DNA of 64,000 nucleotides from a phage, in the NCBI GenBank assembly GCA_036253495.1, contig GCA_036253495.1_4125.1; one strand, written 5' to 3'. Position numbers and translations under genes: made by a program. Below the pieces are notes generated by a model. That model was not told the DNA's origin. It saw only the letters and a list, made by a program, of their open reading frames with translations, and searched no databases. Positions 15,632 to 64,000 of the stretch are shown one piece after another (position 1 is the stretch's first letter; each line of letters starts with the position of its first letter).

Positions 15632-18875
<3,244 letters not shown>

Positions 18876-20130: not shown

Positions 20131-20165
20131 ATTCGGGGGGCTTTATGCTCTCCGAATTCTTTTTG
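20131..20165 (+). terminator. intrinsic terminator
   Basis: ATTCGGGGGG...CTCTCCGAAT stem with wobble pairs, then TCTTTTT. Confidence 0.55.
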
Positions 20166-34170: not shown

Positions 34171-34199
34171 TTGACATATAGATGTGCCCATTGTATAAT
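34171..34199 (+). promoter_or_regulatory. sigma70 consensus promoter (TTGACA-17-TATAAT)
   Basis: Perfect boxes; -10 embedded in palindrome ATGTGCCCATTGTATAATGGGCACAT. Confidence 0.6.
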
Positions 34200-34232
34200 G
34201 GGCACATATTTTATTAATTATCTAAGGATAAT

Positions 34233-55324: not shown

Positions 55325-55357
55325 ATGAGTACTGCTTGCAGTACTCATTTTTTTTTT
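55325..55357 (+). terminator. intrinsic terminator
   Basis: ATGAGTACTG-CTTG-CAGTACTCAT perfect hairpin then TTTTTTTTT. Confidence 0.8.
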
Positions 55358-58025: not shown

Positions 58026-59714
<1,689 letters not shown>

Positions 59715-60578: not shown

Positions 60579-60585
60579 AAGAACG

Positions 60586-60618
<33 letters not shown>

Positions 60619-60619
60619 C

Positions 60620-60675
<56 letters not shown>

Positions 60676-60676
60676 T

Positions 60677-60807
<131 letters not shown>

Positions 60808-60808
60808 A

Positions 60809-60883
<75 letters not shown>

Positions 60884-60926
60884 GGTTCAAGAAGAAAACT
60901 GGGGTTTTTAACCTAACGAGGTCAAT

Positions 60927-61202: not shown

Positions 61203-61631
<429 letters not shown>

Positions 61632-61639
<8 letters not shown>

Positions 61640-61994
61640 TCTAATAGTACGTATAATGCAAGATGTTCGAAAGAACCTTTATACAGGCAATTTTGACGAT
61701 TCGAACATTAAACTATTATGTTATGATGGTTTTACCTTGGTACATCCATCTGAATCAAATAATATATACATATCATATACTTCCAAAAATCAATTATATC
61801 AATTTGATATATATAGCACAATGGCTAAAATAACTTTGGACGTATCCAAGCAGCCTATTCTTATCGCTGTACCAGAATGCAATTACACTGAAGAATCACT
61901 GTTTCAGTACTCAATGATAAATGACATTGGCGACTTGACATTAGAAGAGATTAACGCTATACTAGATGTATCACGTTTGATTAATGCCTACTAA
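61632..61994 (+). CDS. family-1 paralog (YTEESLFQYSMI)
   Basis: 120 aa; family motif. Confidence 0.5.
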
Positions 61995-62199
61995 TTTGGA
62001 GATTAATATGTTCTGGAATTTGTTATGTCTTTTTGGTCGTACCTTTGTTCTTGCAATTATTCATACACCAGGTATTCGTAATTTTGTTTCTTATGAATTT
62101 AAGAAAAATTATCACAACAATACTGAAGTTCGTGCCACTAAAATGTGCAAAGACTTCAATGTAACAGTACCACCATTTAAGAAGTACGAGGATGAATAA
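61984..62199 (+). CDS. hypothetical protein
   Basis: 71-aa ORF. Confidence 0.4.
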   Translation: MPTNLEINMFWNLLCLFGRTFVLAIIHTPGIRNFVSYEFKKNYHNNTEVRATKMCKDFNVTVPPFKKYEDE

Positions 62200-62477
62200 T
62201 GGAATTCATTGTAGCTCCTGAAGAACTCAAGACCTTTAAGTTCAAAGATAATTATACGTATTCAAATCATTCCTTGAATTCAATTCATGTAATTGCAATG
62301 GTTGCATCTGAATATAAAGATAACCCGTGTATTGATTTTAAAACCACTGATGGTGAATATACATGGGTGATCCCACGAGATAAATATAGTTATCAAGGGG
62401 CAGTAGAAATTCGTGACTCGATTCTAAAACAAATCGAAGATGGACATACTCATCCTAAACTAAACATTCAGTACTGA
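62199..62477 (+). CDS. hypothetical protein
   Basis: 92-aa ORF; stop lies inside an ATTCAGTACTGAA palindrome. Confidence 0.45.
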   Translation: MEFIVAPEELKTFKFKDNYTYSNHSLNSIHVIAMVASEYKDNPCIDFKTTDGEYTWVIPRDKYSYQGAVEIRDSILKQIEDGHTHPKLNIQY

Positions 62478-62727
62478 AAATGTTATACCGATAGCTTCTG
62501 GAGCAGTACTGAATCCTCCTTTTTCTTTCAGAAGCTATCACATATTTTGTCGTAAAATGGTACTGTGAGTGTTTTGTCTTTCCATTCTCTCCAGGTCCAG
62601 TACCTATCATTGTAGTTCTGGAGAGATATAACATGTATAATGTTTTTTACCTCCTGTTTATCATTATATATGTCACTAAACGAGTAATAACTACCCTCCC
62701 TCTAGGTTATTACTTTTGATTTTGGTA

Positions 62728-62756
62728 TTGACTTTCAATGCCGCAAATGTTATACT
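62728..62756 (+). promoter_or_regulatory. sigma70-type promoter (TTGACT-17-TATACT)
   Basis: Consensus-like boxes directly upstream of a terminator hairpin. Confidence 0.45.
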
Positions 62757-62759
62757 TAA

Positions 62760-62795
62760 GGCTGATTCAAATTGAATCGGCCTTTTTTTCTTTTT
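62760..62795 (+). terminator. intrinsic terminator overlapping the predicted transcription start
   Basis: GGCTGATTCA-AAT-TGAATCGGCC 10-bp stem then TTTTTTTCTTTTT; sits between -10 and the RBS of CDS 62808. Confidence 0.6.
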
Positions 62796-62807
62796 AAGGA
62801 GAACACC

Positions 62808-63203
62808 ATGAATTTGGTTGTAGAAGACGATATCTTTTCCGATGCTATTGAGTATATGTACAATCTTGTTAGACTTAATGAATTTGTACAACGTCATACA
62901 TTGACACATAAGGATGGGATTATTACTGTTGGTGCATACAATAATGGATACTTAACCGAGTTTTACAATTGTGATAACATTTTTATAACCATTGATAATA
63001 TCACTACGACTAATGACATATCCATTGATTTATTCAAAGATCATATTGAAATTGATATAGACAAGATGATTGCCATCGATATTGATCCTGTAATGTATGA
63101 GTTACAAGAAGAAATGTATGAGCAATTATGCTTTGTGTATGATTTGAGTAAAATTTCATTCTTTGACTTACGCAGAATCTGTTACGTAGTAGGTAAGTTA
63201 TGA
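62808..63203 (+). CDS. hypothetical protein
   Basis: Start moved to ATG 62808 (AAGGAGAA SD). Confidence 0.45.
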   Translation: MNLVVEDDIFSDAIEYMYNLVRLNEFVQRHTLTHKDGIITVGAYNNGYLTEFYNCDNIFITIDNITTTNDISIDLFKDHIEIDIDKMIAIDIDPVMYELQEEMYEQLCFVYDLSKISFFDLRRICYVVGKL

Positions 63204-63673
63204 CAAATATACGTGATGTATTAATGCAGTACGGTATCAGTACTGAAATGCTTTCAGTTGAAATTATTAAAAACTCTAAGATAGAATTTATGTTTAATAG
63301 ACACCGTTATCCAGGTGTTTATATTAATCGATCCTGTTCATTAATTTACTTTGAATACATGGATGAATATGTTATCATTGAAGAAATCAAACTCAATGGA
63401 TGGCACTGTACAATTGAGTTAACGAAACCAAGAACCAAGAACAAAATAGTGATTAGTATTAATATCTATTACGATATTAGTACTGAAGATGGAGCCTCAC
63501 ACTTTGTTCGAGTTTTGTCATCTGATGATAATTTAAAGTTAGATTATAAATCAGAAGAAGAATACTTTCAGGAAAGTTTAATCAATGATTTAGTTTTTGA
63601 TTATAACTTTTATAAAGAACTATCAAAAAACTTCGTTGAATGTATCAAACTATATGAGGAAGAGGACGAATGA
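63200..63673 (+). CDS. family-1 paralog (KSEEEYFQESLI)
   Basis: 157 aa; motif encoded at 63551..63580. Confidence 0.5.
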   Translation: MTNIRDVLMQYGISTEMLSVEIIKNSKIEFMFNRHRYPGVYINRSCSLIYFEYMDEYVIIEEIKLNGWHCTIELTKPRTKNKIVISINIYYDISTEDGASHFVRVLSSDDNLKLDYKSEEEYFQESLINDLVFDYNFYKELSKNFVECIKLYEEEDE

Positions 63674-64000
63674 AAAATTATAAGTTAAGTACAGAATACA
63701 ATGAAATGATCATCAATGCACTTGATAATCATGGTGAGTTTCGTTATCCAGGTGAAGGATTGAACGTTTACTTCGGAGATGAAAACTGGTGCTATCTGAA
63801 TAATGGTGTTCTGACTATCCATATTCAGGATATTAAAAGTGATGTATCATTTGGAATTCACCTAGTTCCCGGTACATTGGTTAATGACGCACGTATCAAT
63901 GTTATTGTCAATGAGAACGAATTCTTTCATGATGATTTTGAAGATGTTAAAATGGCAGCTAGTAAGTTGTATACTACTGAAGAAGAGTACTTTCAGGATA
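63670..64000 (+). CDS. family-1 paralog, 3'-partial (TTEEEYFQD... runs off window)
   Basis: ATG 63670 (ATGA overlap); motif at window end; truncated by the window edge. Confidence 0.45.
   Translation, partial: MKNYKLSTEYNEMIINALDNHGEFRYPGEGLNVYFGDENWCYLNNGVLTIHIQDIKSDVSFGIHLVPGTLVNDARINVIVNENEFFHDDFEDVKMAASKLYTTEEEYFQD

What the first reader, a model, noticed from the sequence alone, without database searches (positions are those of the whole stretch)
62480..62807. ORF-free region with nested hairpins and a terminator inside a promoter leader
About 330 bp without a convincing ORF contain an 11-bp stem GATAGCTTCTG...CAGAAGCTATC (62492..62540), a 9-bp stem TCTCTCCAG...CTGGAGAGA, a 9-bp stem AGTAATAAC...GTTATTACT, then a promoter (62728..62756) followed immediately by a strong terminator hairpin (62760..62795) just before the RBS of CDS 62808. 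This looks like a structured RNA or an attenuator/insulator.
Basis: seen in the sequence. Interest (0 to 1): 0.4.

Follow-up and report, generated by a model that had tools for sequence, protein, structure and literature searches.

The report
Structured inter-operon boundary in jumbo coliphage
A 330-base gene-free stretch of an Asteriusvirus jumbo phage folds, as + strand RNA, into a conserved chain of hairpins that ends in a strong terminator overlapping the next operon's promoter, so it most likely insulates two early operons; its pyrimidine-rich CCUCC loops hint at an extra, untested RNA function.

Summary
The window is an Asteriusvirus (99.4% identical to Escherichia phage A4). Bases 62478-62807 hold no conserved ORF. 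As + strand RNA the region folds far better than shuffles (z about -7 to -9), while 18 other ORF-poor segments of the window give z of 0 to -2.75. Five lineages keep the same chain: H1 (62490-62539) interleaved with a second 11-bp helix (62466-76/62504-14), H3, H4, H5 (over the -35 box) and terminator H6. H2 is an A4-lineage insertion. Changes in stems are compensatory or G.U on the + strand, so the structure is selected at RNA level. The promoter TTGACT-17-TATACT ends one base before H6. The predicted start (62763-62765) lies inside the 5' arm of H6, so H6 (-16 kcal/mol) stops upstream transcripts, not the promoter's own. This resembles the PeSL promoter-terminator cassettes of T4-type phages, and it sits at a mosaic junction. 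Still unexplained: 3 of the window's 10 CCTCC copies lie in the hairpin loops, which may mark a 3'UTR-derived anti-Shine-Dalgarno RNA. No Rfam family matches. In passing: AGTACT is 8-18x over-represented across this phage clade.

The parts
62466..62476 (+). 5' arm of helix I3 (ATTCAGTACTG). It covers the last codons and the UGA stop of CDS 62199-62477 and contains one copy of the genome-wide palindrome CAGTACTG.
   Evidence: It is kept in JNE01 even though the upstream gene is absent there.
62490..62539 (+). Hairpin H1 (= I4): 11-14 bp stem GATAGCTTCTG/CAGAAGCTATC with a 28-nt loop. The loop holds the 3' arm of I3 (62504-62514) and TCCTCC (62514-62519). I3 and I4 are interleaved, giving either an H-type pseudoknot topology or two alternative hairpins.
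   Evidence: 100% of cells are paired across 6 sequences, with one G-C<->A-U compensatory pair and U.G variants. I3 folds at -13 to -16 kcal/mol and I4 at -12 to -19 kcal/mol.
62545..62630 (+). Insertion of about 85 nt found only in the window/A4 lineage. It holds hairpin H2 (62586-94/62618-26), whose 3' arm sequesters a GGAGAG Shine-Dalgarno-like motif.
   Evidence: only A4 matches.
62631..62673 (+). Hairpin H3: 12 bp including one G.U. The loop is UUUUUUACCUCCUGUUUAU (CCTCC at 62650). The 5' arm contains TGTATAATGTTT, identical to the -10 region of two tRNA-region promoters.
62633..62719 (+). Lineage-specific 28-aa ORF (MYNVFYLLFIIIYVTKRVITTLPLGYYF) with RBS GGAGAG-7nt-ATG. It is not conserved in the other lineages and is probably not a gene.
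62682..62715 (+). Hairpin H4: 9 Watson-Crick pairs plus 2 G.U pairs. The loop is ACCCUCCCUCUA. It is followed by UUUUGAUUUU, so it is a weak terminator-like stem-loop just upstream of the -35 box.
   Evidence: The stem sequence has turned over completely between lineages while a hairpin of -9 to -13 kcal/mol is kept. Only 5.4% of 40-nt windows reach -9 kcal/mol.
62723..62743 (+). Hairpin H5 (UGGUAUUGA/UCAAUGCCG), overlapping the -35 hexamer and the spacer.
   Evidence: It is present in all 7 sequence variants with different arm sequences.
62728..62756 (+). Sigma-70-type promoter TTGACT-17-TATACT with TGn extended -10 (TG at 62748-49). The predicted start is 62763-62765.
   Evidence: 10 of 12 matches, TG present. 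The -10 is invariant in all relatives.
62758..62795 (+). Intrinsic terminator H6: 12-13 bp stem (62758-70/62772-84, with one conserved U.G), 3-nt loop, U tract UUUUUCUUUUU. It terminates the upstream operon.
   Evidence: It is 88-93% identical in all lineages.
62796..62810 (+). Shine-Dalgarno AAGGAG (62796-62801) and the ATG (62808) of the first gene of the downstream operon.

Best explanation
The region is the boundary module between two early, host-RNA-polymerase-transcribed operons of an Asteriusvirus jumbo phage. The upstream operon is predicted to run from the promoter at 60855-60883 through tRNA-Thr and four small ORFs to the stop codon at 62477. It continues as a roughly 310-nt untranslated tail folded into a chain of selected + strand RNA hairpins (H1/I3, H3, H4, H5; plus H2 in this lineage). 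It ends at the strong intrinsic terminator H6, with H4 and its U tract acting as a weaker first stop. The promoter of the downstream operon (62728-62756) is packed into this array. H5 covers its -35 box, and H6 begins one base after its -10 hexamer. Its own transcripts therefore start inside the 5' arm of H6, cannot form the terminator, and read into the gene at 62808. The net effect is insulation: upstream read-through is stopped, the 3' end of the upstream mRNA is capped by stable hairpins, and the downstream operon depends only on its own promoter. Because the cassette is much better conserved than the gene behind it, it also serves as a homologous junction for gene shuffling, as PeSL cassettes do in T4-type phages. 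Shown here: the structures, their conservation and strand, the promoter and terminator consensus matches, the geometry, and the mosaic junction. Inferred: the actual start site, termination efficiency, mRNA stabilisation, and any role of the CCUCC loops.
For: Fold: z = -7.3 and -8.9 on the + strand, an outlier in the window. In all five lineages the + strand z is -5.4 to -7.2 and more negative than the - strand.
Conservation: the hairpins are kept in window/A4, 121Q, BF17, UE-S1 and JNE01. There are compensatory pairs in I3, I4 and H6, about ten G.U variants against one A.C mismatch on the + strand, and whole-stem sequence turnover in H4 and H5.
Promoter and terminator: both match consensus. 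Between the promoter at 60855 and this region there is no other + strand terminator-like site.
Geometry: the hairpin is -16.2 kcal/mol in read-through RNA but -4.7 to -0.2 kcal/mol when RNA starts at 62763-62765.
Mosaic junction: the upstream protein is 82% identical to its 121Q counterpart. The downstream protein is 44% identical (33% to JNE01). The -10/H6 block between them is 88-93% identical at the nucleotide level.
Other composites: the same window has other promoter/stem-loop composites, at 34171-34209 (hairpin over the -10) and at 20158, 31755 and 60848 (terminator just before a -35).
Context: related jumbo phages place RpoD-like promoters in early regions full of short ORFs (PMC5259590).
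Against: One terminator would be enough for insulation. The model does not explain why about 250 nt of additional selected hairpins precede it. It does not explain why two 11-bp helices are interleaved, or why 3 of the window's 10 CCTCC copies sit in the loops. H1, H3 and H5 lack good U tracts in most lineages, so they are not terminators. Among 55 promoter-like sites in the window this is the only one with a strong hairpin right after the -10, and no sequence-similar copy of the cassette exists in the window, so it is not a repeated PeSL family by sequence. No transcript data exist for any Asteriusvirus, so the start site and 3' ends are predictions. Only 5-6 independent lineages are available, so covariation statistics are modest (11 of 500 shuffles reach the observed value).
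Confidence: 0.5

Rival explanations
1. The untranslated tail, or a processed part of it ending at terminator H6, is a trans-acting phage small RNA. Its hairpin loops display anti-Shine-Dalgarno motifs (UCCUCCUU, ACCUCCU, CCCUCCCUC) that pair with ribosome-binding sites of host or phage mRNAs, or otherwise mimic the 3' end of 16S rRNA. It would resemble 3'UTR-derived sRNAs and the C-rich-loop sRNAs of other bacteria.
For: Three of the window's 10 CCTCC copies lie in these 250 nt. It is the only place in 64 kb with 4 CCTC in 250 nt, and all copies are unpaired in the predicted folds. Relatives keep 2-4 such motifs (TTCCTCC, TTACCCTC, TTCCTCTT) in loops or linkers even where the loop sequence has changed. 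The RNA ends in a strong terminator with a long U tail, as Hfq-dependent sRNAs do. Selection is on the + strand RNA. The related phage PA5oct expresses four ORF-free ncRNAs, two of them at 2-5% of phage reads (PMC7318152). A weak sub-threshold Rfam hit to mmgR/suhB covers 62705-62797 (16.9 bits against a gathering score of 41).
Against: No conserved dedicated promoter precedes the region. The TATAAT in H3 lacks a -35 box and is absent in UE-S1 and JNE01. UE-S1 has lost the motif from the H3 and H4 loops. Phage ph0011 has deleted H1-H3 entirely. There is no Rfam match and no similarity to the PA5oct ncRNAs. Anti-SD pairing is generic, so no specific target can be named.
Confidence: 0.17
2. The inverted repeats act at the DNA level. 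They could be hairpin or cruciform sites or protein-binding palindromes, such as the two CAGTACTG copies. They would serve recombination or cassette exchange, replication, or promoter control, and the RNA folds would be a by-product.
For: The cassette sits at a mosaic junction. PeSL stem-loops are crossover points in T4-type phages (PMC2839356). CAGTACTG is a genome-wide over-represented palindrome that also sits in the spacer of two strong promoters. H5 overlaps the -35 box.
Against: Single-sided changes in stems are almost all G.U on the + strand and would be A.C on the other strand: about 10 against 1. The + strand folds better than the - strand in every lineage. The arm sequences of H4 and H5 differ completely between lineages, which a sequence-specific protein site would not tolerate. 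AGTACT copies are not clustered beyond chance: 14 close pairs against 13 expected.
Confidence: 0.1
3. One reading: H6 is an attenuator in the leader of the 62728 promoter and controls the downstream operon's own transcripts.
For: The hairpin and U tract lie between the -10 hexamer and the SD. If initiation were unusually close to the -10 (62757-62760), -14 to -16 kcal/mol of hairpin would be in the RNA.
Against: Sigma-70 holoenzyme normally starts 6-8 nt after the -10 hexamer (established knowledge). That places +1 at 62763-62765, inside the 5' arm. The remnant hairpin is no stronger than -4.7 kcal/mol and is detached from the U tract. No alternative anti-terminator structure or sensor lies downstream of the start.
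Confidence: 0.05
4. Translation-coupled switch. I3 and I4 are alternative or pseudoknotted helices. A ribosome finishing CDS 62199-62477 covers the 5' arm of I3, which favours H1. In the 121Q lineage H1 is followed by U5-7, so it could terminate there. Without translation I3 forms first and delays H1.
For: The 5' arm of I3 contains the last three codons and the stop. The two helices are near iso-energetic. Both are conserved, each with a compensatory pair. 121Q, G17 and SD-1 have CACUUUUU(UU) after H1.
Against: In JNE01 the element lies about 15 nt beyond a different gene's stop codon. The U tract after H1 is missing in the window, UE-S1 and JNE01. The helices share no nucleotides, so they are not strictly exclusive.
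Confidence: 0.06
5. Small protein-coding genes are hidden here: the 28-aa hydrophobic ORF 62633-62719 (type I toxin-like, with its RBS sequestered in H2), or the ORFs annotated in relatives (121Q gp145; a - strand ORF in SD-1_S14).
For: GGAGAG-7nt-ATG is a good RBS and is buried in H2. The peptide has a hydrophobic N-terminus. Annotators called small ORFs at this position.
Against: The reading frames are not conserved: the start is ACG in 121Q, a stop codon occupies the same frame in BF17, and indels shift the frame. The RBS lies in an insertion unique to the A4 lineage. The A4 annotators did not call this ORF.
Confidence: 0.04

Closest known systems
PeSL (promoter-early stem-loop) cassettes of T4-type phages (Arbiol et al. 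2010, PMC2839356; Comeau et al. 2014, PMC4122927)
   Same: Both are intergenic composites of a near-consensus sigma-70 promoter plus stem-loops that terminate upstream transcription. [quoted passage not shown] All three positions are occupied here.
   Different: PeSLs are about 100 bp long and occur as many sequence-similar copies per genome. This module is about 330 bp with five to six stem-loops, and it has no sequence-similar copy in the 64-kb window. Its upstream hairpins (H1/I3, H3) have no counterpart in PeSLs. The host phage is a Rak2-like jumbo phage, only distantly related to T4.
T4 genes whose promoter lies inside a hairpin (e, soc, 49, I-TevI; recalled from the literature, not checked here)
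   Same: The logic is the same. Long upstream transcripts contain both arms of an inhibitory hairpin. Transcripts from the internal promoter lack the 5' arm and escape it.
   Different: In T4 the hairpin blocks the ribosome-binding site, which is translational control. Here the hairpin is an intrinsic terminator, which is transcriptional control.
sRNAs with C-rich anti-Shine-Dalgarno loops (RsaE/RoxS, S. aureus RNAIII, MmgR/suhB RF00519)
   Same: They have several hairpins with CCUCC- or UCCC-type loops, followed by an intrinsic terminator.
   Different: There is no sequence or covariance-model match (16.9 bits against a gathering score of 41). No own promoter is evident. The phage and host group are different. 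Trans activity is untested.
ncRNA001-004 of jumbo phage PA5oct (Lood et al. 2020, PMC7318152)
   Same: They are ORF-free, 236-619 nt, + strand regions in a related jumbo phage that are transcribed during infection and have unknown function.
   Different: There is no sequence similarity and no CCUC clustering, and the folds are less extreme (z -2.2 and -4.3). The PA5oct ncRNAs lie in the terminal repeat.

Membership tests
PeSL cassette (T4-type phages) | Near-consensus sigma-70 early promoter in the intergenic space | tested here: met
   TTGACT-17-TATACT with TGn, 10 of 12 matches. This is a consensus match only; activity was not measured.
PeSL cassette (T4-type phages) | Adjacent or overlapping stem-loop able to terminate upstream transcription | tested here: met
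   H6 folds at -16.2 kcal/mol and is followed by a U tract. H4 lies upstream of the -35 box and H5 over it. These are predictions only.
PeSL cassette (T4-type phages) | Many sequence-similar copies spread through the plastic regions of one genome | tested here: not met
   blastn-short of 62722-62807 against the window finds no other copy. Relatives hold one place per record. Other promoter/stem-loop composites exist, but with unrelated sequences. Only 64 of about 355 kb were examined.
PeSL cassette (T4-type phages) | Association with insertion, deletion or replacement of flanking ORFans between close relatives | tested here: met
   The downstream gene is 44% and 33% identical against 82% for the upstream gene, while the cassette is 88-93% identical. 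JNE01 lacks the upstream gene. ph0011 and A4 carry indels inside the module.
PeSL cassette (T4-type phages) | Recombination between cassettes (mini-circles, crossover in the stem-loop) | not testable with these tools
   This needs PCR or long-read data from phage stocks.
Intrinsic (Rho-independent) terminator | G+C-rich stem, short loop, U tract immediately 3' of the stem | tested here: met
   12-13 bp including 5 G-C pairs, a 3-nt loop, and UUUUUCUUUUU directly after the stem.
Intrinsic (Rho-independent) terminator | RNA 3' ends at the U tract in vivo | not testable with these tools
   No Asteriusvirus transcriptome was found.
Any Rfam 15 family (riboswitch, leader, sRNA, tRNA-like) | Score at or above the family's gathering threshold | tested here: not met
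   Nothing reaches gathering score in the region. The best sub-threshold hits are 13-21 bits against thresholds of 32-100. ARAGORN finds no tRNA here.
C-rich-loop anti-SD sRNAs (RsaE, RNAIII, MmgR type) | Several CCUCC/UCCC motifs exposed in hairpin loops | tested here: met
   CCTCC at 62515, 62650 and 62695, all in predicted loops. That is 3 of 10 copies in the whole window.
C-rich-loop anti-SD sRNAs (RsaE, RNAIII, MmgR type) | Discrete transcript with its own promoter or a defined processing site | tested here: inconclusive
   No conserved promoter lies upstream of H1 or H3. Processing cannot be assessed.
C-rich-loop anti-SD sRNAs (RsaE, RNAIII, MmgR type) | Base-pairing with ribosome-binding sites of target mRNAs | not testable with these tools
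   This needs RIL-seq/CLASH or reporter assays.
H-type RNA pseudoknot | Two helices in interleaved order with loops long enough to span them | tested here: met
   S1 is 62466-76/62504-14 and S2 is 62490-500/62529-39. The loops are 13, 3 and 14 nt. Both helices are 94-100% paired in 6 sequences. That the loop lengths suffice is an inference.
H-type RNA pseudoknot | Both helices formed at the same time | not testable with these tools
   ViennaRNA does not model pseudoknots. This needs SHAPE/DMS probing.
Type I toxin-antitoxin locus | Conserved small hydrophobic ORF with a sequestered RBS | tested here: not met
   The 28-aa ORF and its RBS exist only in the A4 lineage, and the frame is broken in 121Q and BF17.
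Rho-dependent terminator (rut site) | C-rich, G-poor, largely unstructured stretch of about 80 nt | tested here: not met
   GC skew is only -0.10 to -0.18, and the region is extremely structured.

The most novel reading that the evidence does not exclude
The roughly 310-nt tail is a new phage non-coding RNA, so far seen only in Asteriusvirus. It would be a multi-hairpin RNA carrying a double 11-bp pseudoknot and three to four exposed CCUCC (16S-3'-end-like) loops. It would be released from the 3' end of an early tRNA-mRNA operon and act in trans on Shine-Dalgarno sequences, for example damping translation of host or early phage mRNAs.
Probability: 0.15. Interest if true: 0.65.

Novelty: new variant of a known kind. 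Interest (0 to 1): 0.4.

Why it matters
If the main reading holds, the compact promoter-within-terminator logic and the cassette-junction role described for T4-type PeSLs also operate in the Rak2-like jumbo phages. That gives a concrete, testable operon boundary in a 355-kb genome whose transcription map is unknown. It also gives annotators a reason to drop the small ORFs called here in several relatives. If the anti-SD reading holds, this would be a new, structurally defined phage ncRNA with a predicted seed, in a clade where ORF-free transcripts have been seen (PA5oct) but none is understood. Separately, the clade-wide 8-18-fold excess of AGTACT, seen beside wholesale loss of G+C-rich palindromes, is an unexplained genome signature that deserves its own study.

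Tried and rejected
- Rfam at gathering and at E<=10: nothing credible.
- tRNA or tmRNA in the region: none.
- Conserved ORFs on either strand, including - strand ORFs behind the GGAGG motifs: none conserved (by inspection).
- More homologues for covariation: the IMG/VR pattern scan returned only 121Q itself plus unrelated coding hits. The metagenome scan returned one G17-like contig. E. coli genomes gave no match. The A4-specific insertion has no other copy in phages.
- Second copies of element A: a covariance model found none in the window or in 50-kb pieces of GAP32 and RaK2. The best outside hit (RaK2 18765-18845, 25.5 bits) is an unrelated SD-sequestering hairpin between non-homologous genes.
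- Repeated PeSL family by sequence: not found.
- Similarity to the PA5oct ncRNAs: none.
- LexA box from the TACTG/CAGTA half-sites: the spacing is wrong (27 nt, not 10; by inspection).
- Recoding signal at the UGA stop: no slippery site, read-through adds only 5 codons, and the element is detached from any stop codon in JNE01.
- Promoter in front of H1 or H3: the -35 boxes are poor and not conserved.
- Direct-repeat similarity between element A and the promoter/terminator cassette (D1/D2): not significant by blastn (E = 0.93).
- Clustering of AGTACT copies into hairpins: not above chance.
- Formal pair counting for H4 and H5: the MAFFT alignment puts the lineages in different registers, so only per-sequence folds were used.
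Full report
IDENTITY AND CONTEXT. The 1.2 kb around the finding is 99.4% identical to Escherichia phage A4 (Asteriusvirus, 355 kb). It is 84-86% identical, with gaps, to 121Q, PBECO4, G17 and about 30 other Asteriusvirus genomes. The region lies just downstream of the tRNA cluster of the window (tRNA-Gly, Ser, Met, Asn, Thr). The surrounding + strand ORFs are small, have no Pfam match, and fall in PHROG families of unknown function, some of them paralogous. The window carries many near-consensus sigma-70 promoters: 55 sites with at least 10 of 12 matches on the + strand, several of them perfect. This fits the early regions described for the related jumbo phages CBB and GAP32, which combine RpoD-like early promoters with a T4-like late motif (PMC5259590).

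OBSERVATION. The first is an 11-bp helix I3 (62466-76/62504-14), interleaved with the first stem I4/H1 (62490-500/62529-39). The second is a 12-bp hairpin H3 (62631-42/62662-73). The third is a 9-bp hairpin H5 (62723-31/62735-43) over the -35 box. The hairpins are tandem rather than nested. As + strand RNA, 62460-62800 folds at -93.8 kcal/mol, against -62.5 +/- 4.3 for dinucleotide shuffles (z = -7.3). The - strand gives z = -4.0. For 62478-62795 z is -8.9, while 18 other ORF-poor segments of the same window range from 0 to -2.75. The region is therefore exceptional within its own genome.

RELATIVES. I recovered eleven distinct versions of the intergenic region, falling into five lineages plus one deletion derivative. 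The lineages are window/A4, the 121Q/G17/SP27/SD-1/SHEFM2K group, the BF17/Ecwhy_1/CMSTMSU/TH47/EC.P1 group, UE-S1, and JNE01/Turkey5. Phage ph0011 has deleted H1-H3. Bases 62545-62630 (hairpin H2) are an insertion found only in the window and A4. Every lineage keeps H1 with I3, H4, H5 and H6. H3 is kept in three lineages and is weaker in UE-S1 and JNE01. In all five lineages the + strand z-score (-5.4 to -7.2) is more negative than the - strand z-score (-2.4 to -4.8).

For I3 and I4, 94% and 100% of cells are paired. Each helix has one compensatory double change (A-U<->G-C; G-C<->A-U) and two or three single-sided changes to G.U. Sliding the partners by 1-3 columns drops pairing to 18-39%. 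H6 is nearly invariant, with one U-A<->A-U swap in JNE01 and a U.G pair that becomes U-A in ph0011. H4 and H5 have changed their arm sequences completely between lineages. For H4 the arms are AGTAATAAC, ACAGTATC and GGTATCTTA. For H5 they are GGTATTGA and AGAAGTT. They still fold at -9 to -13 kcal/mol and -5 to -9 kcal/mol respectively. Only 5.4% of 40-nt windows in this genome reach -9 kcal/mol. Across all stems I counted about ten G.U variants and one A.C mismatch on the + strand. On the - strand those G.U pairs would all be mismatches. The selected object is therefore a + strand RNA, co-linear with the flanking genes. The sample is small, at five to six independent lineages, so the shuffle statistics are modest (11 of 500). 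Scans of IMG/VR, JGI metagenomes and E. coli genomes added no further diversity.

PROMOTER AND TERMINATOR GEOMETRY. The -10 hexamer TATACT occupies 62751-62756, preceded by TG at 62748-49. The terminator stem starts at 62758. With the usual 6-8 nt between the -10 and +1 (established knowledge of sigma-70 promoters), transcription should start at 62763-62765. RNA starting there retains a 5-7 bp A/U-rich remnant (-4.7 to -0.2 kcal/mol), separated from the U tract by the unpaired bases (C)GGCC. RNA arriving from upstream forms the full -16.2 kcal/mol hairpin directly abutting UUUUUCUUUUU. Between the predicted promoter at 60855-60883 (upstream of tRNA-Thr) and this region, my scan finds no other + strand terminator-like site. 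H4 (62716) and H6 (62786) are the next ones. H6 is therefore best read as the terminator of the upstream operon, which runs tRNA-Thr, then four ORFs, then a structured tail. The promoter is the independent start of the next operon.

COMPARISON WITH PeSLs. In T4-type phages, PeSLs are about 100-bp intergenic composites of a strong sigma-70 promoter and a stem-loop. They have experimentally shown promoter and terminator activity. [quoted passage not shown] Recombination between cassettes shuffles the flanking ORFans (PMC2839356, PMC4122927). The present module has stem-loops in three of those positions (H4, H5, H6). It also sits at a mosaic junction. The upstream protein is 82% identical to that of 121Q, and the downstream protein only 44% (33% to JNE01). 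The -10/H6 block between them is 88-93% identical in all lineages. JNE01 lacks the upstream gene altogether yet keeps the whole element, including the I3 arm that elsewhere forms the last codons of that gene.

Other composites occur in the window. A hairpin overlaps the -10 at 34171-34209, and terminators lie immediately before a -35 at 20158, 31755 and 60848. However, the cassette has no sequence-similar copy in the window. It is the only one of 55 promoter-like sites with a strong hairpin directly after the -10. So it works like a PeSL, but it does not meet the repeated-family criterion.

WHAT THE BOUNDARY MODEL LEAVES UNEXPLAINED. Insulation needs one terminator, yet about 250 nt of additional selected structure precede H6. 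Three features stand out.
(i) I3 and I4 are interleaved, both are conserved, and they are similar in stability (-13 to -16 against -12 to -19 kcal/mol). Loop lengths of 13, 3 and 14 nt would allow an H-type pseudoknot (inference). Alternatively they form a kinetic switch, since the 5' arm of I3 overlaps the upstream stop codon in most lineages.
(ii) The loops are pyrimidine-rich and carry anti-Shine-Dalgarno-like motifs. CCTCC occurs 10 times in 64 kb, and three of those copies are here (62515 in the H1 loop, 62650 in the H3 loop, 62695 in the H4 loop). This is the only 250-nt stretch of the window with four CCTC. Relatives keep TTCCTCC, TTACCCTC and TTCCTCTT in equivalent unpaired positions, although UE-S1 has lost two of them.
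(iii) The arms of I3 are two copies of CAGTACTG, the most over-represented octamer of the window.

These features keep open a 3'UTR-derived or processed sRNA with anti-SD seeds. The related jumbo phage PA5oct expresses four ORF-free RNAs of unknown function (PMC7318152), but they share no sequence or architecture with this region. Against an essential role, ph0011 lacks H1-H3. No Rfam family matches. A covariance model of element A finds no second copy in the window or in 50-kb samples of GAP32 and RaK2. The best outside hit proved unrelated.

CODING ALTERNATIVES. The window has a 28-aa hydrophobic ORF (62633-62719) with a good RBS buried in H2. The RBS lies in the A4-specific insertion, and the frame is not kept in 121Q or BF17. 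The small ORFs annotated here in 121Q/G17 (gp145) and on the - strand in SD-1_S14 are likewise not conserved and are probably over-annotation. The - strand GGAGG motifs are not followed by usable start codons (by inspection).

GENOME-WIDE SIDE OBSERVATION. CAGTACTG occurs 25 times in the window against 0.7 expected. Its core AGTACT occurs 122 times against 15 expected and is the top hexamer. It appears in all three reading frames and in non-coding DNA, evenly spread and not clustered. It prefers C before and G after the core. The same excess holds in GAP32 (253 against 14 in 50 kb) and RaK2 (119 against 12). PA5oct is the opposite (1 against 11). At the same time 22 palindromic hexamers, nearly all with four or more G+C, have zero copies. 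I found no paper that mentions this. It bears on the finding only in that I3 is built from two copies of this motif. Close pairs of the motif are no more frequent than chance (14 against 13), so part of the pairing in I3 could be a by-product. Against that, I3 is conserved, it has a compensatory pair, and BF17 carries a G.U variant that breaks the DNA palindrome.

VERDICT. The best explanation (about 0.5) is a structured inter-operon boundary. It consists of the hairpin-capped 3' untranslated tail and terminator of an early tRNA-mRNA operon, fused to the promoter of the next operon so that the promoter's own transcripts start inside the terminator. This is a PeSL-like insulator and recombination junction in a Rak2-like jumbo phage. 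The interleaved helices and the CCUCC loops are not explained by this model and leave about 0.15-0.2 for a genuine new phage ncRNA. Novelty: new variant of a known kind. Interest is moderate (0.4).

Noticed in passing
whole window; also L045 (GAP32 1-50000) and L046 (RaK2 1-50000): AGTACT is the most over-represented hexamer: 122 against 15 expected in the window, 253 against 14 in GAP32, and 119 against 12 in RaK2. In PA5oct it is avoided (1 against 11). CAGTACTG occurs 25 times against 0.7 expected, and TTCAGTACTGAA 5 times. The motif appears in all three reading frames and in non-coding DNA, is evenly spread, and prefers C before and G after the core. The cause is unknown, and no paper found mentions it.
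   Followed up: partly
whole window: 22 palindromic hexamers have zero copies, nearly all of them with four or more G+C. Sixteen were expected at least 3 times (CCATGG 8.6, GCATGC 7.8, TGGCCA 7.6, CTGCAG 6.6, CAGCTG 6.6, GGATCC 5.6 and others). This looks like strong restriction-site avoidance. It is shared with GAP32 and, less strongly, RaK2.
   Followed up: partly
window 58630-58657 and 59589-59617: Two strong tRNA-region promoters share the 23-nt string CTTGACTAAATAGTTCAGTACTG, which places the CAGTACTG palindrome in the spacer directly before the -10. This could be an operator-like arrangement.
   Followed up: no
window 34171-34209: A perfect TTGACA-17-TATAAT promoter has its -10 inside the loop of a 10-11 bp G+C-rich hairpin (ATGTGCCCAT TGTATAA TGGGCACAT) followed by TTTTATTA. 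This is a PeSL-like composite of the 'stem-loop over the -10' class. Terminators at 20158, 31755 and 60848 sit immediately before promoters.
   Followed up: partly
window 60579-60926: An ORF-poor stretch between the tRNA cluster and the promoter at 60855 holds two copies of the 16-mer GTATTCAGTACTGAAT, 121 nt apart (60602, 60723). The fold is not exceptional (z = -1.7).
   Followed up: no
window 58026-58104: Rfam calls a weak tRNA (32.6 bits against a gathering score of 29) that ARAGORN does not report. It may be a degenerate or unusual tRNA.
   Followed up: no
window 55328-55350: A terminator-like hairpin has arms ATGAGTACTGC/GCAGTACTCAT, that is, two AGTACT copies, followed by T8. About 5 of 20 + strand terminator-like hairpins contain the motif or its AGTAC/GTACT half-site.
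   Followed up: no
L002 1929-2036 (121Q gp145), L003 1960-2037 (G17_00168), L036 675-782 (SD-1_S14, - strand): Small ORFs annotated inside the hairpin array in relatives are not conserved in frame or strand between lineages. They are probably over-annotation.
   Followed up: yes
window 61208-61994 and 62808-64000: Neighbouring small ORFs form paralogous families (phrog_17453 twice). Several share a C-terminal (S/T)TEEE(Y/F)FQ-like motif whose codons contribute some of the CAGTACTG copies.
   Followed up: no
L046 18765-18845 (RaK2): A 12-bp hairpin ATATAGCACCTC/GAGGTGCTATAT lies right after a stop codon (…CAGTACTAA). Its 3' arm is the SD/start region of the next gene, which makes it a candidate translational-coupling hairpin. 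It is not homologous to the element studied here.
   Followed up: partly
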